NCBI RefSeq assembly: GCF_006345805.1
Contig: NW_021836508.1
Span: forward strand, 1 to 23,916
Reading direction: 5' to 3'
DNA from: Octopus sinensis
Taxonomy: Eukaryota
Length of the DNA: 23,916 nt
Part shown: positions 18,239-23,916 of the stretch, in pieces
How positions within the stretch are numbered: the stretch's first letter is position 1
How the letters are laid out: each line of letters starts with the position of its first letter
Position numbers: made by a program

Positions 18239-21200
18239 TTAATCATATGAAAGGGAAATGGAAATTAATTAAAATTTCCATTTCCAGTGGCCTAACGTGT
18301 AAAAATGTAGTCCAAAGACTATGTATTAGTCATAAGGTGGAGGCGCAATGGTCCAGCGGTTAGGGCAGCGGGCTCGCAGTCGTAGGATCGCGGTTTCGAT
18401 TCCCAGACCGGGCGTTGTGAGTATTTATTGAGCGAAAACACCTAAAAGCTCTACGATGCTCCGGCAGGGGATGGTGGTGATCCCTGCTGTACTCTTTCAC
18501 CACAACTTTCTCTTACTCTTACTTCCTGTTTCTGTTGTACCTGTATTTCAAAGGGCCGGCCTTGTCACTCTCTGTGTCACGCTGAATATCCCCGAGAACT
18601 ACGTTAAGGGTACACGTGTCTGTGGAGTGCTCAGCCACTTACACGTTAATTTCACGAGCAGGCTGTTCCGTTGATTCGGATCAACCGGAACCCTCATCGT
18701 CGTAACCGACGGAGTGCTTCCATCATTAGTCATAAGATACAGTGTACATTTAAACACATAAGGAATCCACTCGTGGGATTCAACACGCTAGAAAGAACAG
18801 CTAGGTTCTATAACCACAAAATTAGGGATAAAATTCGACAGGAACGAAATTTCATGGCTGATACATTATTTTATCGACGAAGGAAGAAATTGACGCCGGA
18901 GGCATCCGAACTCAGATCGTAGAGATCCAGAAGAAATACCGCAAAGCAGTTTTCCAACGCTCTCACAATTGAGCTAATCCATCGTGCTTTGCTAAATGAA
19001 GTATGGGTACCTTAGGGTGTTAGGAAGATAGACTGACAGCAAAACAAACAATGAAGTGAATAGTTTTTAAACGCACAATACCAATATTTAGTCTTAATAT
19101 ATATGAAATCACCCAAGCACATTAACAGAGAAATTACTGAAAAGGGGAGCAAAAAAAGGAAGTAACATTTTTGTGTTAGTAGAATAAAGAGCGCGCCATG
19201 GCAGCGAGTTGGCAAAAACGTCACCACTTCGTTTGACGTCGGTTGTGTTTTTTTCGGCTCCTGAAAATTCGGTAAAAAAGAACAAAAAGCGTTGTTGTTG
19301 TTGTGGAAATTCTGAACGGCGTTGACGCGGTTTCGCGTTTCGCTCGTTCAGCGCGTTAAACTTTTTTCTGTTTTGGCGGCCGTTTTCGGTCTGTCAGACA
19401 GAAGGAAATGGACTATGAGTCTCTAACAGACTTGTCCACGACAGATGAGGAACTAGAACAGGCAATTGCAGTGAAGCTGATGGAGGAAAAGGCTGGAGTT
19501 TTCGAGTCTTTATCAGACTCGCCTACGTCTGAGAAGGAGCTAGAAATGGCAGCGAGGAATTTGGAAAAGAAGCTGAGTTATACTTATGCCGGTGTAACCA
19601 AGAAGGCGGAAGAGAAAGGGGTCGACTTGGCCAAGCTACCAAGTTACCAGAAACACATGAAAAGGAAAGCGGTGAGGTGGAACTATCACCGACACCCAGG
19701 AGAAAAGAATGGTATGATAAGAGGACCATTGTTTACAGGGTGTGCGCAAACGAAAGGAAGAGGGTAGAAGTTGTATCCATGGAATGGATAGAGGAAGCCC
19801 TGCGAAGAACTGAGGAGGAAATAAATTTTCTGACTCGAGGATCCAAGTATGGGACCGTAGTTGTGCATTTTAAAAGTGAATCTGCAGCGAGGAAGATGGC
19901 GGCGAAGGCGGTGAAGTCGGAAAAGGTAACACTGTTACCTACGTATTTAAACAGGAGGATTACACGAATAAGGGTGGAGGGAGTGCCACCAAACGTGGAG
20001 GCAGAATGGATTGTGGCGGCTGTGATCAGCGGCCACGAGGACGAAGTAGATATTCTCCATGCCTCGGTTAAGTCCGAGGGCTGGAGAGGCGTAACAGTGG
20101 AGCTGAACGTACAGGCAGAGACCGAGGTACTGGTGGACCTGACGGAAAGCATCAGACTGGGAGAAGTGATCATGAGAGTGTGGGTGGAGGGCAGGGCTCC
20201 ACGTTGTTACAAGTGTGGCCTGAGGGGTCACATAAGAGCCTTCTGCCCTCCCCCAGGGAAAGAAATGGATCCCGAACCAGAGAGAGAGAAGCAGAAACCA
20301 GAGGAGAAGGAAACAGAGGAAGAGAATACACAGAAATGGAAGGAAGCTGGAAGTAAGAGAAGAGAAGAATACGTGGAAAAGAAAATAATATGGAACTCCA
20401 ATCCACCCCAAAACCACCCACGCCCTCTGAGTCCCACCCTATCCATGCAGACATTGAACCCACCGCTCCCCCCCCCCAAAAAGAAAACAAAAGAAAAAAA
20501 AGAATACACACACACAAGAGATTGAAATCGATATCAGGCCGTACATTTGTACTATGACTGAACAGAAAGAAGTTAAAAGTCTAATGGAAGAGTATAAATG
20601 GTATGATGTTGGTGAGACTAGGTATGCTGTGATTGAAAAGAAGAACATAGGTGACTTTATGGTGATGTGTGAATGCGAGAATTGGGAGGTGAAAGATATA
20701 AGAATGAGCGATGAATTCGTGGAAAATATGGATGAGTATTTCGGAGTAAGAATGGATATGGAATTTATTCGTATTGGCAAAGAACATTCAAGTGACTATG
20801 AAAAACAAAGGACAGGTAAGTGATGCTGACGGACGGGGCCGTTGGTATCGCTTTCATTTAATCATTTTTTCGTTTAACAATTCATGTTCATAAAGTTTAA
20901 TTATAATGTTCTATGTCCCCATGTCTTTTGGTGTCCCCTTCTGTGTCGCCCCTAGTGGGTAATAAAGAAATCACCACTTCGTTTGACGTCGGTTGTGTTT
21001 TTTTCGGCTCCTGAAAATTCGGTAAAAAAGAACAAAAAGTGAATGGTTGTTGTTGTGAAATTTTGAGCGTAGTTGATGCGGTTTCGCGTTTCACTGGTTC
21101 TGCGCGTTGCACTTTTTCGGTTCGGGAGGCCGTTTTTCGGTCTGAGGCGATTATGAGCCGCCTCCATCAAACGGAGGAGATGGAAGGGAGAAATTTCTCT

Positions 21201-23916
21201 GAAATTTCGACGGAAGTATTGACATCTGAGGAGGAGTTGGCGGTGAGGGGGATGGAGGGCACCTGCGCGGGTGTGACGAGGAAGTCGATGGAAGGAGAGA
21301 TGGACCTGGCTAGGTTGACGGGCCTCCGGGAGTTTGTGAAGGAGGACGAGAGCGGAGAGGTCGAGCTGCTGCCTCCGGTGGGGCGCGGAGGCTGGTTCCA
21401 TCGTGGAACCGTTGAATGTGAAGTGTTTATGAATGGAGGTGGAAAGATGGAAGTGGTTAACATGGAAGCGGTTGAAGGGGCTCTCAGGCGGACGGGAGAG
21501 GAGGTTGTGTGCTTGACGGGAGGATTGCAGTGCGGAGCCATAGCGGTGCAGTTTAGAAGTGAGGGGGTGGCCAGGAATGTGGCAGCCGGGGTGGTGAGTG
21601 CAGAGGGGTTTTACTTGTTGCCCTCGTGTCTGAATGGGCGGACGGCCGGAATTGGGGTGGAAGGAGTGCCTCCGCGCCTGGAGGGCGAATTGATGGCGGC
21701 TGCGGTTGTGAAAGGAAGTGAAGATGGAGTGGACGTCCTCCACGCCATTATGAAGTGTGAAGGCGTGAGAGGTGCCACACTAGTTATGAACATTCAAACG
21801 GAGGCGGATGTTATAGAGAGGATTACGGACAGCATAAAAACTGGAAATATTATTATGAGAGTGTGGGTGGAGGGTAGGGCGCCCAGGTGCTACAAGTGTG
21901 GCCAAAGGGGTCACATAAGAGCCTACTGCCCTCCCCCACCAAAGGAAAAAGAAAAGGAAAGCGTTGAGGAAGCCTCAGGAGAGGAAGAAAATAAACAGAA
22001 ACAAACAGAGAAGGAAACGACAGAAGAAGAGATGCAACAAGAGTGGAAAGAAGGGGGAACAAAGAGAAAAAGAAAGAAAAAGAAAAACTGTGCGAAGCCC
22101 CAACCCACCCCGACACCACCCATACCCTTGGAGTCCCATCCTTCCCCTGCAAACAGTGATTCCACCCACTCCCCGCCTACAAGAAAATCAAAAAAAACAG
22201 ACACACAGAGCAAAGAAAGTCCCAAGACCCATTTTTTATGTGTTATACATGGGAAAGACATACAAAACGTTAAAAAACAGGTGTTAACCAAGTGGTACGA
22301 ACACGAAGATTGTAGCTACACGGCTGTGGATAGTGATGATACGGGTATATTGGCGAGAAGGTTTGAGGAAGAGGGTGTGTGTTGGAGGTCAGTGGAAATG
22401 AAAGATGAATGGATAGAGATGGCTAATAGAAAAACGAATGTTGTGATAGGAAAACAAGGAATACTAATTGGAAATGGGTGAAGAAGGACAGATAAGTGAT
22501 GCTGGCGGATGGGGCCGTCGGTATCACTCTCATATATCATTTTCATATTCCATTTTGCTCATATATATGTAATTGTGATGTTCTATGTCCCCAATGTTTG
22601 TAATGTCCCCTCTATGTAGCCCCTAGTGGGTAATAAAGAAATCAGAAACGTCACCACTTCGTTTGACGTCGGTTGTGTTTTTTTCGGCTCCTGAAAGTTC
22701 GGTAAAAAAGAGCAAAAGGCGTGGTTGTTGTTGTGGAAACTCTGAACGGCGTTGACGCGGTTTCGCGTTTCGCTCGTTCAGCGCGTTAAACTTTTTCGGT
22801 TCGGGAGGCCGTTTTTCGGTCTGAGGCGATTATGAGCCGCCTCCATCAAACGGAGGAGATGGAAGGGAGAAATTTCTCTGAAATTCCGACGGAAGTATTG
22901 ACATCTGAGGAGGAGTTGGCGGTGAAAAAGATGGAAGGCACCTACGCAGGTGTAACGAAGAAGTCAATGGAAAGAGAGATAGACCTGGCTAAGTTGACGG
23001 GCTTCCAGGAGTTTGTGAAGGAGGACGAGAACGGAGAGGTCGAGCTGCTGCCTCCAGTAGGGCGCGGAGACTGGTTCCATCGTAGAACCATTAAATATAA
23101 AGTATTTATGAATGGAGGTAGAAAGATGGAAGTAATTAACATGGAAGCAATTGAAGAGGCTCTCAAGCAGACAGGAGAGGAAATTGTGTACATGACAAAA
23201 GGATTACAATACGGAACTATAACGGTGCAATTTAAAAGTGAAAAAGTAGCCAGGAATGTAGCAGCCAAGGTGGTGAGTACAGAAAAGTTTTACTTGTTAC
23301 CCTCGTATCTGAATAGGCGGACAACCAGAATTAGGGTGGAAGGAATACCTCCACACCTAGAGGGCGAATTAATAACGGCTGCGGTTATAAAAGGAAATGA
23401 AGATAAAGTGGACATCCTCCACGCCATTATGAAGTATGAAGGCGTGAGAGGTGCCACACTAGTTATGAACATTCAAACGGAGGCGGATGTTATAGAGAGG
23501 ATTACGGACAGCATAAAAACTGGAAATATTATTATGAGAGTGTGGGTGGAGGGTAGGGCGCCCAGGTGCTACAAGTGTGGCCAAAGGGGTCACATAAGAG
23601 CCTACTGCCCTCCCCCACCAAAGGAAAAAGAAAAGGAAAGCGTTGAGGAAGCCTCAGGAGAGGAAGAAAATAAACAGAAACAAACAGAGAAAGAAACGAC
23701 AGAAGAAGAGGAGATGCAACAAGAGTGGAAAGAAGGGGGAACAAAGAGAAAAAGAAAGAAAAAGAAAAACTGTGCGAAGCCCCAACCCACCCCGACACCA
23801 CCCATACCCTTGGAGTCCCATCCTCCCCCTGCAAACAGTGATTCCACCCACTCCCCGCCTACAAGAAAATCAAAAAAAACAGACACACAGAGCAAAGAAA
23901 GTCCCAAGACCCATTT

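What the first reader, a model, noticed from the sequence alone, without database searches (positions are those of the whole stretch)
21153..22481. Editing-recoded ORF1 stays open: about 45 residue changes in one step
Seen: A-to-G cannot create stop codons, and B keeps a 442-aa frame with roughly 45 substitutions (K to R/G/E, Y to C, I to V/M, T to A, R to G) in the RRM-like region. The zinc knuckle and the visible C-terminal part are untouched. Inference: this is either host restriction (loss of basic and aromatic RNA-binding residues) or a saltatory diversification route. Because mobilisation is in trans, edited copies could seed new subfamilies.
Basis: partly seen in the sequence, partly recalled or inferred. 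Interest (0 to 1): 0.7.

Follow-up and report, generated by a model that had tools for sequence, protein, structure and literature searches.

The report
RNA-edited retroposon copy fixed in DNA
One of three head-to-tail copies of a small gag-like retroposon in an octopus-type genome carries 80 A-to-G changes in a 511-base block, which is the fingerprint of ADAR RNA editing copied back into DNA; it is a clean example of a known process, and the recoded protein looks damaged rather than improved.

Summary
Units B (20972-22642) and C (22643-window end) align without gaps. Between 21247 and 21757 they differ at 83 of 511 positions, and 80 of these are A (C) to G (B). At 604 flanking positions they differ at only 3. 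In the block, 80 of 184 A's changed, against 1 of 218 outside it.

The upstream base decides which A's changed: T 78%, C 56%, A 51%, G 4% (p 6e-12). Only 2 of 103 T's changed. This is the ADAR hyperediting signature.

Outgroups show that B is the derived copy. B keeps a 442-aa frame with 49 residue changes, 45 of them caused by A>G alone.

An open frame is no evidence of function, because A>G cannot make a stop codon. Edits are random with respect to coding effect, they hit the family's most conserved residues, and net charge falls from +3 to -8.

The protein has two RRM-like domains and a CCHC knuckle, with no RT in the unit. The unit's 3' tail matches the window's SINE tails.

Best reading: a hyperedited transcript was retroposed, probably in trans. 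Diversification is untested, because no eukaryotic genome collection could be searched.

The parts
19213..20971 (+). Unit A: a divergent, decayed member of the same retroposon family. It has the same 5' leader and 3' tail, and its coding region is spread over three frames.
   Evidence: The 5' leader is 93-96% identical to that of C. The middle of the ORF is 55% identical to C at protein level. The N-terminal and C-terminal parts match only in other frames. Used as an outgroup.
20972..22642 (+). Unit B: the hyperedited copy, with 5' leader, ORF, 3' UTR and tail.
   Evidence: Aligns with C over 20808-22234 against 22484-23916. Its 5' end starts 9 nt later than those of A and C.
21153..22481 (+). 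ORF of unit B, 442 aa (the finding). It is gag-like or ORF1-like: an N-terminal helical part, two RRM-like domains, one CCHC knuckle, a K/E/P-rich linker and a small C-terminal domain.
21247..21757 (+). Hyperedited block covering codons 32-202: 80 A>G, 2 T>C and 1 A>T relative to C.
   Evidence: The edges are sharp: 0 of 29 A's changed in the 100 nt upstream, and 1 of 49 in the 150 nt from 21747.
21885..21932 (+). CCHC zinc knuckle (residues 245-260), identical in B and C.
   Evidence: Pfam zf-CCHC scores 19.4 and 19.5 bits, just under the 20.8 cut-off. The family profile matches retroviral nucleocapsid knuckles at E 7e-7.
22598..22642 (+). 3' tail of unit B, shared with the tails of the SINE copies in the window.
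   Evidence: Local alignment scores 29-31 against three SINE tails, reached by 0 of 1000 shuffles. See also alignment A3.
22643..23916 (+). Unit C: the unedited sister copy, cut by the window end. Its ORF starts at 22832 and is still open at the end of the window.
22926..23436 (+). The counterpart in C of the edited block, representing the unedited state. Its base composition resembles the flanks and unit A.
   Evidence: In this block C has A 0.36 and G 0.28, whereas B has A 0.20 and G 0.44. The homologous stretch of unit A has A 0.34 and G 0.32.
21040..21110 (+). A second, different patch private to B in the 5' leader: about 11 substitutions of mixed type and 2 indels. It is not ADAR-like.
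   Evidence: Three-way alignment A4.

Best explanation
The window comes from an octopus-type genome and ends in a head-to-tail array of three copies (A, B, C) of a retroposon about 1.7 kb long. The retroposon encodes only a gag-like ORF1 protein (two RRM-like domains and one CCHC knuckle) and has no reverse transcriptase. It ends in the same roughly 45-nt tail as the local SINEs.

The proposed sequence of events for B is as follows. The RNA that became B formed a double-stranded RNA about 0.5 kb long over codons 32-202. The partner was most likely an antisense or inverted transcript from another copy. ADAR deaminated about 43% of the adenosines on the sense strand. A reverse transcriptase supplied in trans, which recognises the shared tail, then copied the edited RNA into DNA and read inosine as G.

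The outcome was 80 A>G changes and 46 amino-acid changes fixed in one round.

The open frame is an automatic consequence of the chemistry. The edits were not filtered by selection, and they remove conserved aromatic and basic residues of the RRM-like domains. B's protein is therefore most likely crippled, and B is a by-product of editing rather than an adapted variant.

Shown: the change pattern, its polarity, its context rule, the fold and the shared tail.

Inferred: ADAR as the enzyme, the antisense partner, reverse transcription in trans, and the loss of protein function.
For: 1. One substitution type, one strand, one block. There are 80 A>G among 83 differences in 511 nt, and 2 of 103 T's, 0 of 144 G's and 0 of 80 C's changed. 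The flanks differ at 3 of 604 positions.

2. Upstream-base rule. The fraction of A's edited is 29 of 37 after T, 15 of 27 after C, 34 of 67 after A and 2 of 53 after G (chi-square p 5.7e-12). The downstream base has no effect (p 0.63). G depletion upstream is the ADAR signature (passages read in PMC2873906 and PMC5625713). PMC5625713 also reports that octopus has exceptionally high hyper-editing and lacks the mammalian preference for G downstream.

3. Polarity. At the 49 changed residues, 31 homologues carry C's residue more often than B's at 40 sites, B's more often at 6, and tie at 3. At the 80 edited bases, unit A matches C at 41, matches B at 19 and has another base at 20. C's composition in the block matches the flanks and unit A, whereas B's is anomalous.

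4. RNA origin of the units. The tail is shared with the SINEs. The 5' ends of the units differ by 9 nt. The neighbouring units belong to different subfamilies. SINE copies in the same window also sit head to tail.

5. No RT or endonuclease domain. None was found in the unit or in 25 further open frames, chosen from the 71 frames of at least 90 aa in the window.

6. No selection filter. The ratio of synonymous to non-synonymous changes is 26:54 for edited A's and 27:77 for unedited A's (p 0.41).

7. Damage. Y120C, Y127C, T129A, Y159C and R162G hit columns where 16 of 29, 16 of 30, 25 of 30, 27 of 31 and 17 of 31 homologues keep C's residue and none has B's. In residues 32-202, K+R falls from 28 to 17 while D+E stays at 25.
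Against: - No double-stranded partner is visible. There are no inverted repeats in 19200-23916. The unedited stretch folds like an ordinary mRNA with no long duplex (z -2.6). The window holds no inverted copy of the ORF. The dsRNA is therefore assumed.
- There is no poly(A) and no visible target-site duplication, and the right end of the array lies outside the window. Retroposition of the whole unit is inferred from the tail and the junctions only.
- B and C are not simply one master with and without editing. B's leader has a private patch of mixed substitutions (21040-21110).
- At 19 of the 80 sites the distant outgroup A has G, as B does. Unit A is only about 64% identical here, so this is noisy.
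- If B is taken as the ancestor, the G's that differ are somewhat enriched before G (42 of 85 against 9 of 60 before A, p 3e-4). This resembles an APOBEC3G-type context, although it is confounded by neighbouring edits.
- The enzyme, the partner LINE and transcription of any copy were not observed.
Confidence: 0.8

Rival explanations
1. The direction is reversed. B is ancestral, and C suffered G-to-A hypermutation of its first-strand cDNA by an AID/APOBEC-like cytidine deaminase.
For: A pairwise comparison cannot give the direction. With B's context, the changed G's are enriched before G (42 of 85) and depleted before A (9 of 60), with p 3e-4. Only two G>A changes in the block could create a stop, both in one TGG codon, so an open frame in C does not exclude this reading.
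Against: Homologues agree with C at 40 of 49 sites and with B at 6. Unit A matches C at 41 sites and B at 19. B's composition, not C's, is the anomalous one. The upstream-base effect in the A>G direction is far sharper (2 of 53 after G against 29 of 37 after T, p 6e-12). The downstream effect seen with B's context is confounded because edited neighbours read as G.
Confidence: 0.03
2. An edited transcript served only as a template for local repair or gene conversion of a copy that was already in place. Under this reading, only the 511-nt patch went through RNA, not the whole unit.
For: The block has sharp edges, and the flanks inside the ORF are nearly identical (3 differences in 604 positions). 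No target-site duplication or poly(A) is visible.
Against: The extent of a dsRNA duplex explains the sharp edges equally well. B's 5' junction and leader differ from those of C, as expected for separate insertions. Units of different subfamilies lie head to tail, and so do the SINEs.
Confidence: 0.1
3. This is an artefact: RNA-derived or erroneous reads entered the assembly or its polishing, so the G's are not in the germline DNA.
For: Clusters of one mismatch type have entered reference genomes through sequencing error (PMC2873906, passages read). Hyper-edited RNA is abundant in octopus (PMC5625713, passages read). Tandem repeats are prone to misassembly.
Against: The block lies inside a unit with its own private junction and leader differences. 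The reported systematic error is of the G-to-A type. The upstream-base rule is biological rather than technical. Raw reads could not be examined here.
Confidence: 0.04
4. This is DNA-level mutation or ordinary divergence. Possible forms are a mosaic with a G-rich paralogue, or error-prone synthesis such as polymerase eta acting at WA motifs.
For: B also carries a patch of mixed substitutions in its leader (21040-21110), so some non-editing process or recombination did touch this copy. A's after A or T are often changed.
Against: Divergence does not give 80 of 83 changes of one type on one strand with 0 of 224 G and C positions changed. A's after C are changed as often as A's after A (56% and 51%), which does not fit a WA motif (the WA motif is recalled, not taken from any call). 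The density of 16% in 511 nt stands beside 0.5% in the flanks.
Confidence: 0.03
5. This is functional diversification. B is a viable recoded variant that has founded, or can found, a new subfamily.
For: The frame, start codon, knuckle, leader and 3' tail are intact. If mobilisation is in trans, the copy's own protein need not work.
Against: There is no sign of selection on the edits. Conserved residues are lost, and net charge in residues 32-202 goes from +3 to -8. No second copy with B's pattern occurs in the window or among predicted proteins, although those searches are weak for repeats.
Confidence: 0.07

Closest known systems
ADAR hyperediting ('biased hypermutation') of viral and retroelement RNA, and its footprints in genomes after reverse transcription
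   Same: Clustered, strand-specific A>G changes with G depleted upstream, affecting close to half of the A's in a long duplex. The changes become heritable once the RNA is copied into DNA. The cluster and motif criteria are as described in PMC2873906 and PMC5625713 (passages read). The survey of A-to-G edited mammalian retrotransposons by Knisbacher and Levanon (2015) was seen only in reference lists, so its content is recalled.
   Different: The host here is an octopus-type mollusc, and the element is an ORF1-only non-LTR retroposon in a head-to-tail array. The unedited sister copy lies directly next to the edited one. My searches found no report of such genomic footprints in cephalopods. Those searches covered open-access text only.
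APOBEC3 G-to-A edited retroelement copies in vertebrate genomes (PMC4866542)
   Same: A deaminase footprint is frozen in a retroelement copy. It is detected as a one-type mismatch cluster between paired copies, and an outgroup or consensus is needed to set the direction (method passage read).
   Different: The enzyme, the substrate (cDNA rather than RNA), the direction and the context rule all differ. G>A creates stop codons, whereas A>G cannot.
HAL1 (half-L1), a non-autonomous LINE derivative that encodes only ORF1p (PMC5753468, passage read)
   Same: The unit has an ORF1-type gene, no ORF2, and depends on a reverse transcriptase supplied in trans.
   Different: HAL1 carries the L1 type II ORF1 (coiled coil, RRM, CTD) and a poly(A) tail. 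This unit has an RRM-RRM-CCHC protein and a specific tail shared with SINEs. The partner LINE is unknown.
Type I ORF1 proteins of non-LTR retrotransposons (the Khazina and Weichenrieder classes, as summarised in PMC4120745)
   Same: At least one RRM lies directly upstream of a gag-like CCHC knuckle. As in several subgroups of that paper, the top structural match is a tandem-RRM protein such as Sxl (1b7f) (Table 1 of the paper).
   Different: There is one knuckle instead of the usual three, an extra C-terminal domain of unknown function, and no linked ORF2.
HeT-A of Drosophila telomeres (recalled, from no call)
   Same: A gag-only non-LTR element found in head-to-tail arrays that are built from separate RNA copies.
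   Different: Nothing here shows a chromosome end. HeT-A has a poly(A) tail, and no homology with it was tested.

Membership tests
ADAR hyperediting footprint fixed through reverse transcription | A cluster of a single mismatch type (A>G) on one strand | tested here: met
   80 of 83 differences in 511 nt are A>G, with 2 T>C and 1 A>T. None of the 224 G and C positions changed.
ADAR hyperediting footprint fixed through reverse transcription | G depleted immediately upstream of edited A's | tested here: met
   2 of 80 edited A's follow G, against 51 of 104 unedited A's (p 5.7e-12).
ADAR hyperediting footprint fixed through reverse transcription | A is the ancestral state | tested here: met
   40 of 49 residue sites favour C and 6 favour B. 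Unit A matches C at 41 of the 80 sites and B at 19. Base composition agrees.
ADAR hyperediting footprint fixed through reverse transcription | A long double-stranded RNA substrate covering the edited block | tested here: inconclusive
   No inverted repeat and no long helix in cis, and no inverted copy in the window. A partner in trans could not be sought.
ADAR hyperediting footprint fixed through reverse transcription | The edited copy arose through an RNA intermediate | tested here: inconclusive
   The 3' tail shared with SINEs, the differing 5' ends and the absence of introns speak for it. There is no poly(A), no target-site duplication is seen, and the right end of the array lies outside the window.
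ADAR hyperediting footprint fixed through reverse transcription | The host has active ADAR with this specificity | not testable with these tools
   The closest protein comes from Octopus sinensis. Octopus hyper-editing and its motif are taken from PMC5625713 (passages read).
Type I ORF1p of non-LTR retrotransposons | An RRM directly upstream of a CCHC knuckle | tested here: met
   The AlphaFold model of C residues 1-267 has pLDDT 85.2. Foldseek's top PDB hits are tandem-RRM proteins, with E 9e-6 and probability 1.00 but low whole-chain TM scores of 0.33-0.45. The knuckle matches Pfam at 19.5 bits against a 20.8 cut-off, and the family profile matches nucleocapsid knuckles at E 7e-7. Pfam itself finds no RRM.
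Type I ORF1p of non-LTR retrotransposons | An ORF2 with endonuclease and reverse transcriptase downstream in the same element | tested here: not met
   The unit is about 1.7 kb and ends 161 nt after the stop codon. No RT or endonuclease family was found in the ORFs of A, B or C or in 25 other frames. None of 15 longer homologues carries RT or EN domains.
HAL1-like ORF1-only non-autonomous retroposon | Encodes ORF1p only and is derived from, and mobilised by, an identified autonomous LINE | tested here: inconclusive
   The ORF1-only state is met. The parent or partner LINE was not identified. Searches for fused forms found none (weak evidence).
APOBEC-type G-to-A hypermutation | G is ancestral, and the context rule lies on the base downstream of the changed G | tested here: not met
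   Polarity points the other way. The downstream effect appears only with B's context and is absent with C's.

The most novel reading that the evidence does not exclude
In octopus-type genomes, ADAR hyperediting followed by retroposition may be a recurrent, heritable mutator for tail-sharing retroposons. Under this reading, head-to-tail arrays are built one RNA molecule at a time, by tail-primed insertion or by end-to-end template jumping of the partner reverse transcriptase. B's edits would then be a natural barcode showing that neighbouring units came from different RNAs. Because mobilisation is in trans, recoded copies such as B could still spread and found ORF1 subfamilies in a single step. 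The three private A>G changes within 22 nt of C's leader would be a faint second footprint of the same process.
Probability: 0.12. Interest if true: 0.7.

Novelty: new member of a known kind. Interest (0 to 1): 0.45.

Why it matters
Cephalopods edit RNA more heavily than any other animals studied, yet editing is usually treated as non-heritable. A retroposon copy that has frozen 80 edits into DNA, with its unedited sister beside it, shows directly that edited RNA can return to the germline genome in this lineage.

It also gives a search template for counting such events: one-type clusters, G depletion upstream, and outgroup polarity. The count would show whether ADAR acts here mainly as a brake on retroposons or also as a source of new subfamilies.

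The same locus suggests that the head-to-tail arrays of this family are assembled from separate RNA copies.

The process itself is already known from viruses and, by recall, from mammalian retroelements. This is therefore a well-resolved example, not a new mechanism.

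Tried and rejected
- Word-indexed protein search with the whole B protein found nothing, probably because the K/E-rich linker supplied the words.
- The same tool with C residues 1-265 gave one hit, an Octopus sinensis protein at 57% identity. The 'longer' mode gave none.
- The exhaustive representative search gave 263 relatives at E up to 0.001, none closer than 58% identity.
- Rfam gave no match at gathering scores.
- Pfam finds no RRM and no family for the C-terminal domain or for the antisense frame.
- The Atlas look-up gave only leads: CCHC clusters, and a ZCCHC3-like cluster at score 0.90. 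It was not followed up.
- I looked for a duplex in cis by folding and by inverted-repeat search and found none.
- SINE copies in the window are only 79-87% identical to each other. They are too old to test for editing clusters, so this was dropped.
- I did not predict a structure for B, because AlphaFold with the same alignment is not expected to respond to point changes.
- No complex prediction was relevant.
- Knisbacher and Levanon (2015) is not held.

Full report
**What the window is.** The window has no N. It is AT-rich and full of microsatellites and SINE-like repeats. The only close protein relative of the ORF in question is an uncharacterized protein of Octopus sinensis, at 57-58% identity. 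I therefore treat the source as an octopus-type genome.

**Anatomy of the locus.** The last 4.7 kb of the window is a head-to-tail array of three related units: A (19213-20971), B (20972-22642) and C (22643 to the window end).
- Each unit has a CpG-rich leader of about 190 nt.
- Each has one long ORF and a 3' UTR of about 160 nt.
- The 3' UTR ends in a tail that contains AATAAA. There is no poly(A) tract.
- B's ORF is 21153-22481 (442 aa).
- C's ORF starts at 22832 and is still open where the window ends.
- A is a divergent member (55% protein identity to C in the middle part). Its coding region is now spread over three frames.

**Check of the observation.** B and C align without gaps from 21111 to 22020 at an offset of 1679.
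- In the block 21247-21757 they differ at 83 of 511 positions: 80 A (in C) to G (in B), 2 T>C and 1 A>T.
- None of the 144 G's and none of the 80 C's in the block changed.
- At 604 flanking positions inside the same unit there are 3 substitutions and one 3-nt indel.
- 80 of 184 A's changed inside the block, against 1 of 218 outside it (p 2.5e-31).
- The edges are abrupt. No A changed among 29 in the 100 nt upstream, and 1 of 49 changed in the 150 nt from 21747.
- At protein level there are 49 changes. Forty-five are caused by A>G alone, and T129A by an A>G beside a silent T>C.
- The knuckle and the visible C-terminal part are essentially untouched.

**Which enzyme signature.** Whether an A changed depends on the base before it. 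The fraction changed is 29 of 37 after T, 15 of 27 after C, 34 of 67 after A and 2 of 53 after G (p 5.7e-12). The base after it has no effect (p 0.63).
- Depletion of G upstream is the common ADAR mark across animals.
- Octopus is reported to have exceptionally high hyper-editing and to lack the mammalian preference for G downstream (PMC5625713, passages read; PMC2873906, passages read).
- About 43% of the A's were changed. This is close to the ceiling I recall for long perfect duplexes; that figure is recalled and comes from no call.
- A's after C changed as often as A's after A, which does not fit a WA-type polymerase-error motif (the motif is recalled).

**Direction.** A pairwise comparison cannot tell A>G in B from G>A in C, and the second is what an APOBEC-type enzyme would produce. 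Three lines of evidence point to B as the derived copy.
- In an alignment with 31 homologues, C's residue is commoner than B's at 40 of the 49 changed sites. B's is commoner at 6, and 3 are ties.
- At the 80 bases, unit A matches C at 41, matches B at 19 and has another base at 20.
- C's composition in the block (A 0.36, G 0.28) resembles the flanks and unit A. B's composition (A 0.20, G 0.44) is the odd one.

One result goes the other way. With B's context, the changed G's are enriched before G. This is confounded by neighbouring edits, and it is much weaker than the upstream rule in the A>G direction.

**What the protein is.** Pfam sees only a borderline CCHC knuckle (19.4-19.5 bits against a cut-off of 20.8).
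- The exhaustive search found 263 relatives at E up to 0.001.
- Of 15 longer relatives scanned, 7 have a significant CCHC match and none has RT or endonuclease domains. Three are fusions with unrelated domains.
- With 31 relatives as the alignment, AlphaFold gives a confident model of C residues 1-267 (pLDDT 85.2). Residues 1-23 are disordered. Two alpha/beta domains follow, at about 86-160 and 162-240, and then the knuckle.
- Foldseek against the PDB returns tandem-RRM proteins first: Sxl 1b7f at E 9e-6, then IMP3 RRM12, HuD and HuR. Probability is 1.00, but whole-chain TM scores are low (0.33-0.45), as expected when two domains sit at a different angle.
- The family profile matches retroviral nucleocapsid knuckles at E 7e-7.

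This is the architecture called type I ORF1p, meaning an RRM directly upstream of a CCHC knuckle (PMC4120745, passages read). Here it has one knuckle and an extra C-terminal domain, which is conserved between A and B at 23% identity (E 4e-5).

**No RT, and a tail shared with SINEs.** The unit ends 161 nt after the stop codon.
- No RT or endonuclease family was found in the ORFs of A, B or C, or in 25 further open frames. These 25 were chosen from the 71 frames of at least 90 aa. The frames left out were simple-repeat frames and frames overlapping the array.
- The last roughly 45 nt of unit B align with the 3' tails of three SINE copies in the window. The scores are 29-31, and 0 of 1000 shuffles reach them (alignment).
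- The tail pattern recurs at 5 SINE sites, where none is expected by chance.
- A shared 3' tail is the classical mark of elements that borrow one LINE's reverse transcriptase (established knowledge, not tested here).

The unit therefore works like HAL1, the ORF1-only derivative of L1 (PMC5753468, passage read), but with a different ORF1 type and tail. Its partner LINE is unknown.

**How an edited copy comes to sit in a tandem array.** Unequal crossing-over would give identical junctions and sister units. Here the evidence points elsewhere.
- B begins 9 nt later than A and C.
- A belongs to another subfamily.
- B's leader differs from C's.
- SINE copies in the same window also lie head to tail (12895-13440).

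I infer that each unit came from a separate RNA. The mechanism would be either insertion primed on an existing tail or template jumping of the reverse transcriptase from one RNA to the next. I cannot separate these two. Local repair templated by an edited transcript remains a rival, which I put at about 0.1.

**The missing piece.** ADAR needs double-stranded RNA. None can form in cis.
- There are no inverted repeats in 19200-23916.
- The unedited stretch has an ordinary mRNA-like fold, at -183 kcal/mol and z -2.6, with no long helix.
- The window holds no inverted copy of the ORF.

A uniform edit density of 30-60% of A's per 50 nt with sharp edges fits a duplex of about 0.5 kb formed with an antisense or inverted transcript from another copy. 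That partner is inferred, not seen.

**Meaning for the protein.** The open frame says nothing about function, because no sense codon becomes a stop through A>G, and the ATG lies outside the block.
- The edits are random with respect to coding effect. The ratio of synonymous to non-synonymous changes is 26:54 among edited A's and 27:77 among unedited A's (p 0.41). It is also unchanged when A's after G are left out.
- The edits remove the best conserved residues of the RRM-like domains. Y159 is kept by 27 of 31 homologues, T129 by 25 of 30, R162 by 17 of 31, and Y120 and Y127 by 16 each. None of the homologues has B's residue at these sites.
- In residues 32-202, K+R falls from 28 to 17 while D+E stays at 25. 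Y falls from 7 to 1, G rises from 14 to 28, and C rises from 0 to 6.

I infer a crippled RNA-binding protein. If mobilisation is in trans, B's RNA could still be copied, so a new subfamily is not excluded. Nothing here supports one, however. No second B-like copy occurs in the window or among predicted proteins, and the genome itself could not be searched.

**Novelty.** Hyperediting footprints fixed by reverse transcription are a known kind. I know them from retroviruses and, by recall, from the mammalian survey of Knisbacher and Levanon (2015), which I saw only in reference lists (the paper is not held). The APOBEC counterpart is well documented (PMC4866542, method passage read).

Three full-text searches found no report of such genomic footprints in cephalopods. 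These cover open-access papers and preprints only. I rate this as a new member of a known kind. It is of moderate interest because of the host lineage and because of how clean the example is.

**What stayed unchecked.**
- Copies sharing B's pattern elsewhere in the genome.
- Raw-read support for B.
- Transcription of any copy, and any antisense partner.
- The partner LINE.
- The right end of the array.

Noticed in passing
window 21040-21110: B's 5' leader carries a private patch of about 11 substitutions of mixed type (C>T x3, A>G x2, and one each of G>A, G>T, C>A, C>G, A>T, A>C) plus 2 indels within about 70 nt. The leader on both sides of the patch is identical to A or C. The patch is not ADAR-like. 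It could be a mosaic with another subfamily, CpG decay, or error-prone synthesis. It remains unexplained.
   Followed up: partly
window 22697, 22712, 22718: Unit C has three private A>G changes within 22 nt of its leader, at positions where A and B both have A. A private T>C lies nearby. This may be a faint second editing footprint, but there are too few sites to test.
   Followed up: partly
window 20952-21779, minus strand: A 275-codon stop-free frame runs antisense to B's edited block. The corresponding frame in C is only 115 codons long. Each antisense stop codon corresponds to a sense-strand triplet ending in A (TTA, CTA, TCA), so sense-strand A>G editing erases antisense stops. The frame is a by-product of the editing and has no Pfam match.
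   Followed up: yes
window 19408-20820: Unit A's coding region is split over three reading frames, which means at least two frameshifts (one near 19660 and one near 20460-20520). It is a decayed copy.
   Followed up: yes
window 12895-13440 and 4051-4455: tRNA-derived-looking SINE copies lie head to tail with a spacing of about 184 nt. The later copies start at the same internal position. Further copies lie on the minus strand at 4628-4858, 11998-12231 and 16285-16516. Rfam gives no match.
   Followed up: partly
window 6190-7829: A Tc1/mariner-type DNA transposon remnant. Its 229-nt terminal inverted repeats are 95% complementary. They flank a 214-aa frame that matches HTH_Tnp_Tc3_2 (E 9e-13) and DDE_3 (E 5e-16).
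   Followed up: yes
window 22200-22478 and 20500-20800: A and B share a small C-terminal domain of the ORF1-like protein (23% identity over 93 aa, E 4e-5). It has no Pfam match, and its function is unknown.
   Followed up: partly
window 9891-10060: A near-perfect 80-nt inverted repeat (98% complementary) with a 10-nt spacer. It could be a hairpin or a MITE-like element.
   Followed up: no
window 1705-2400: A long degenerate array with steps of 8 and 12 nt (79 overlapping copies reported). It gives rise to spurious open frames at 1702-2390.
   Followed up: no
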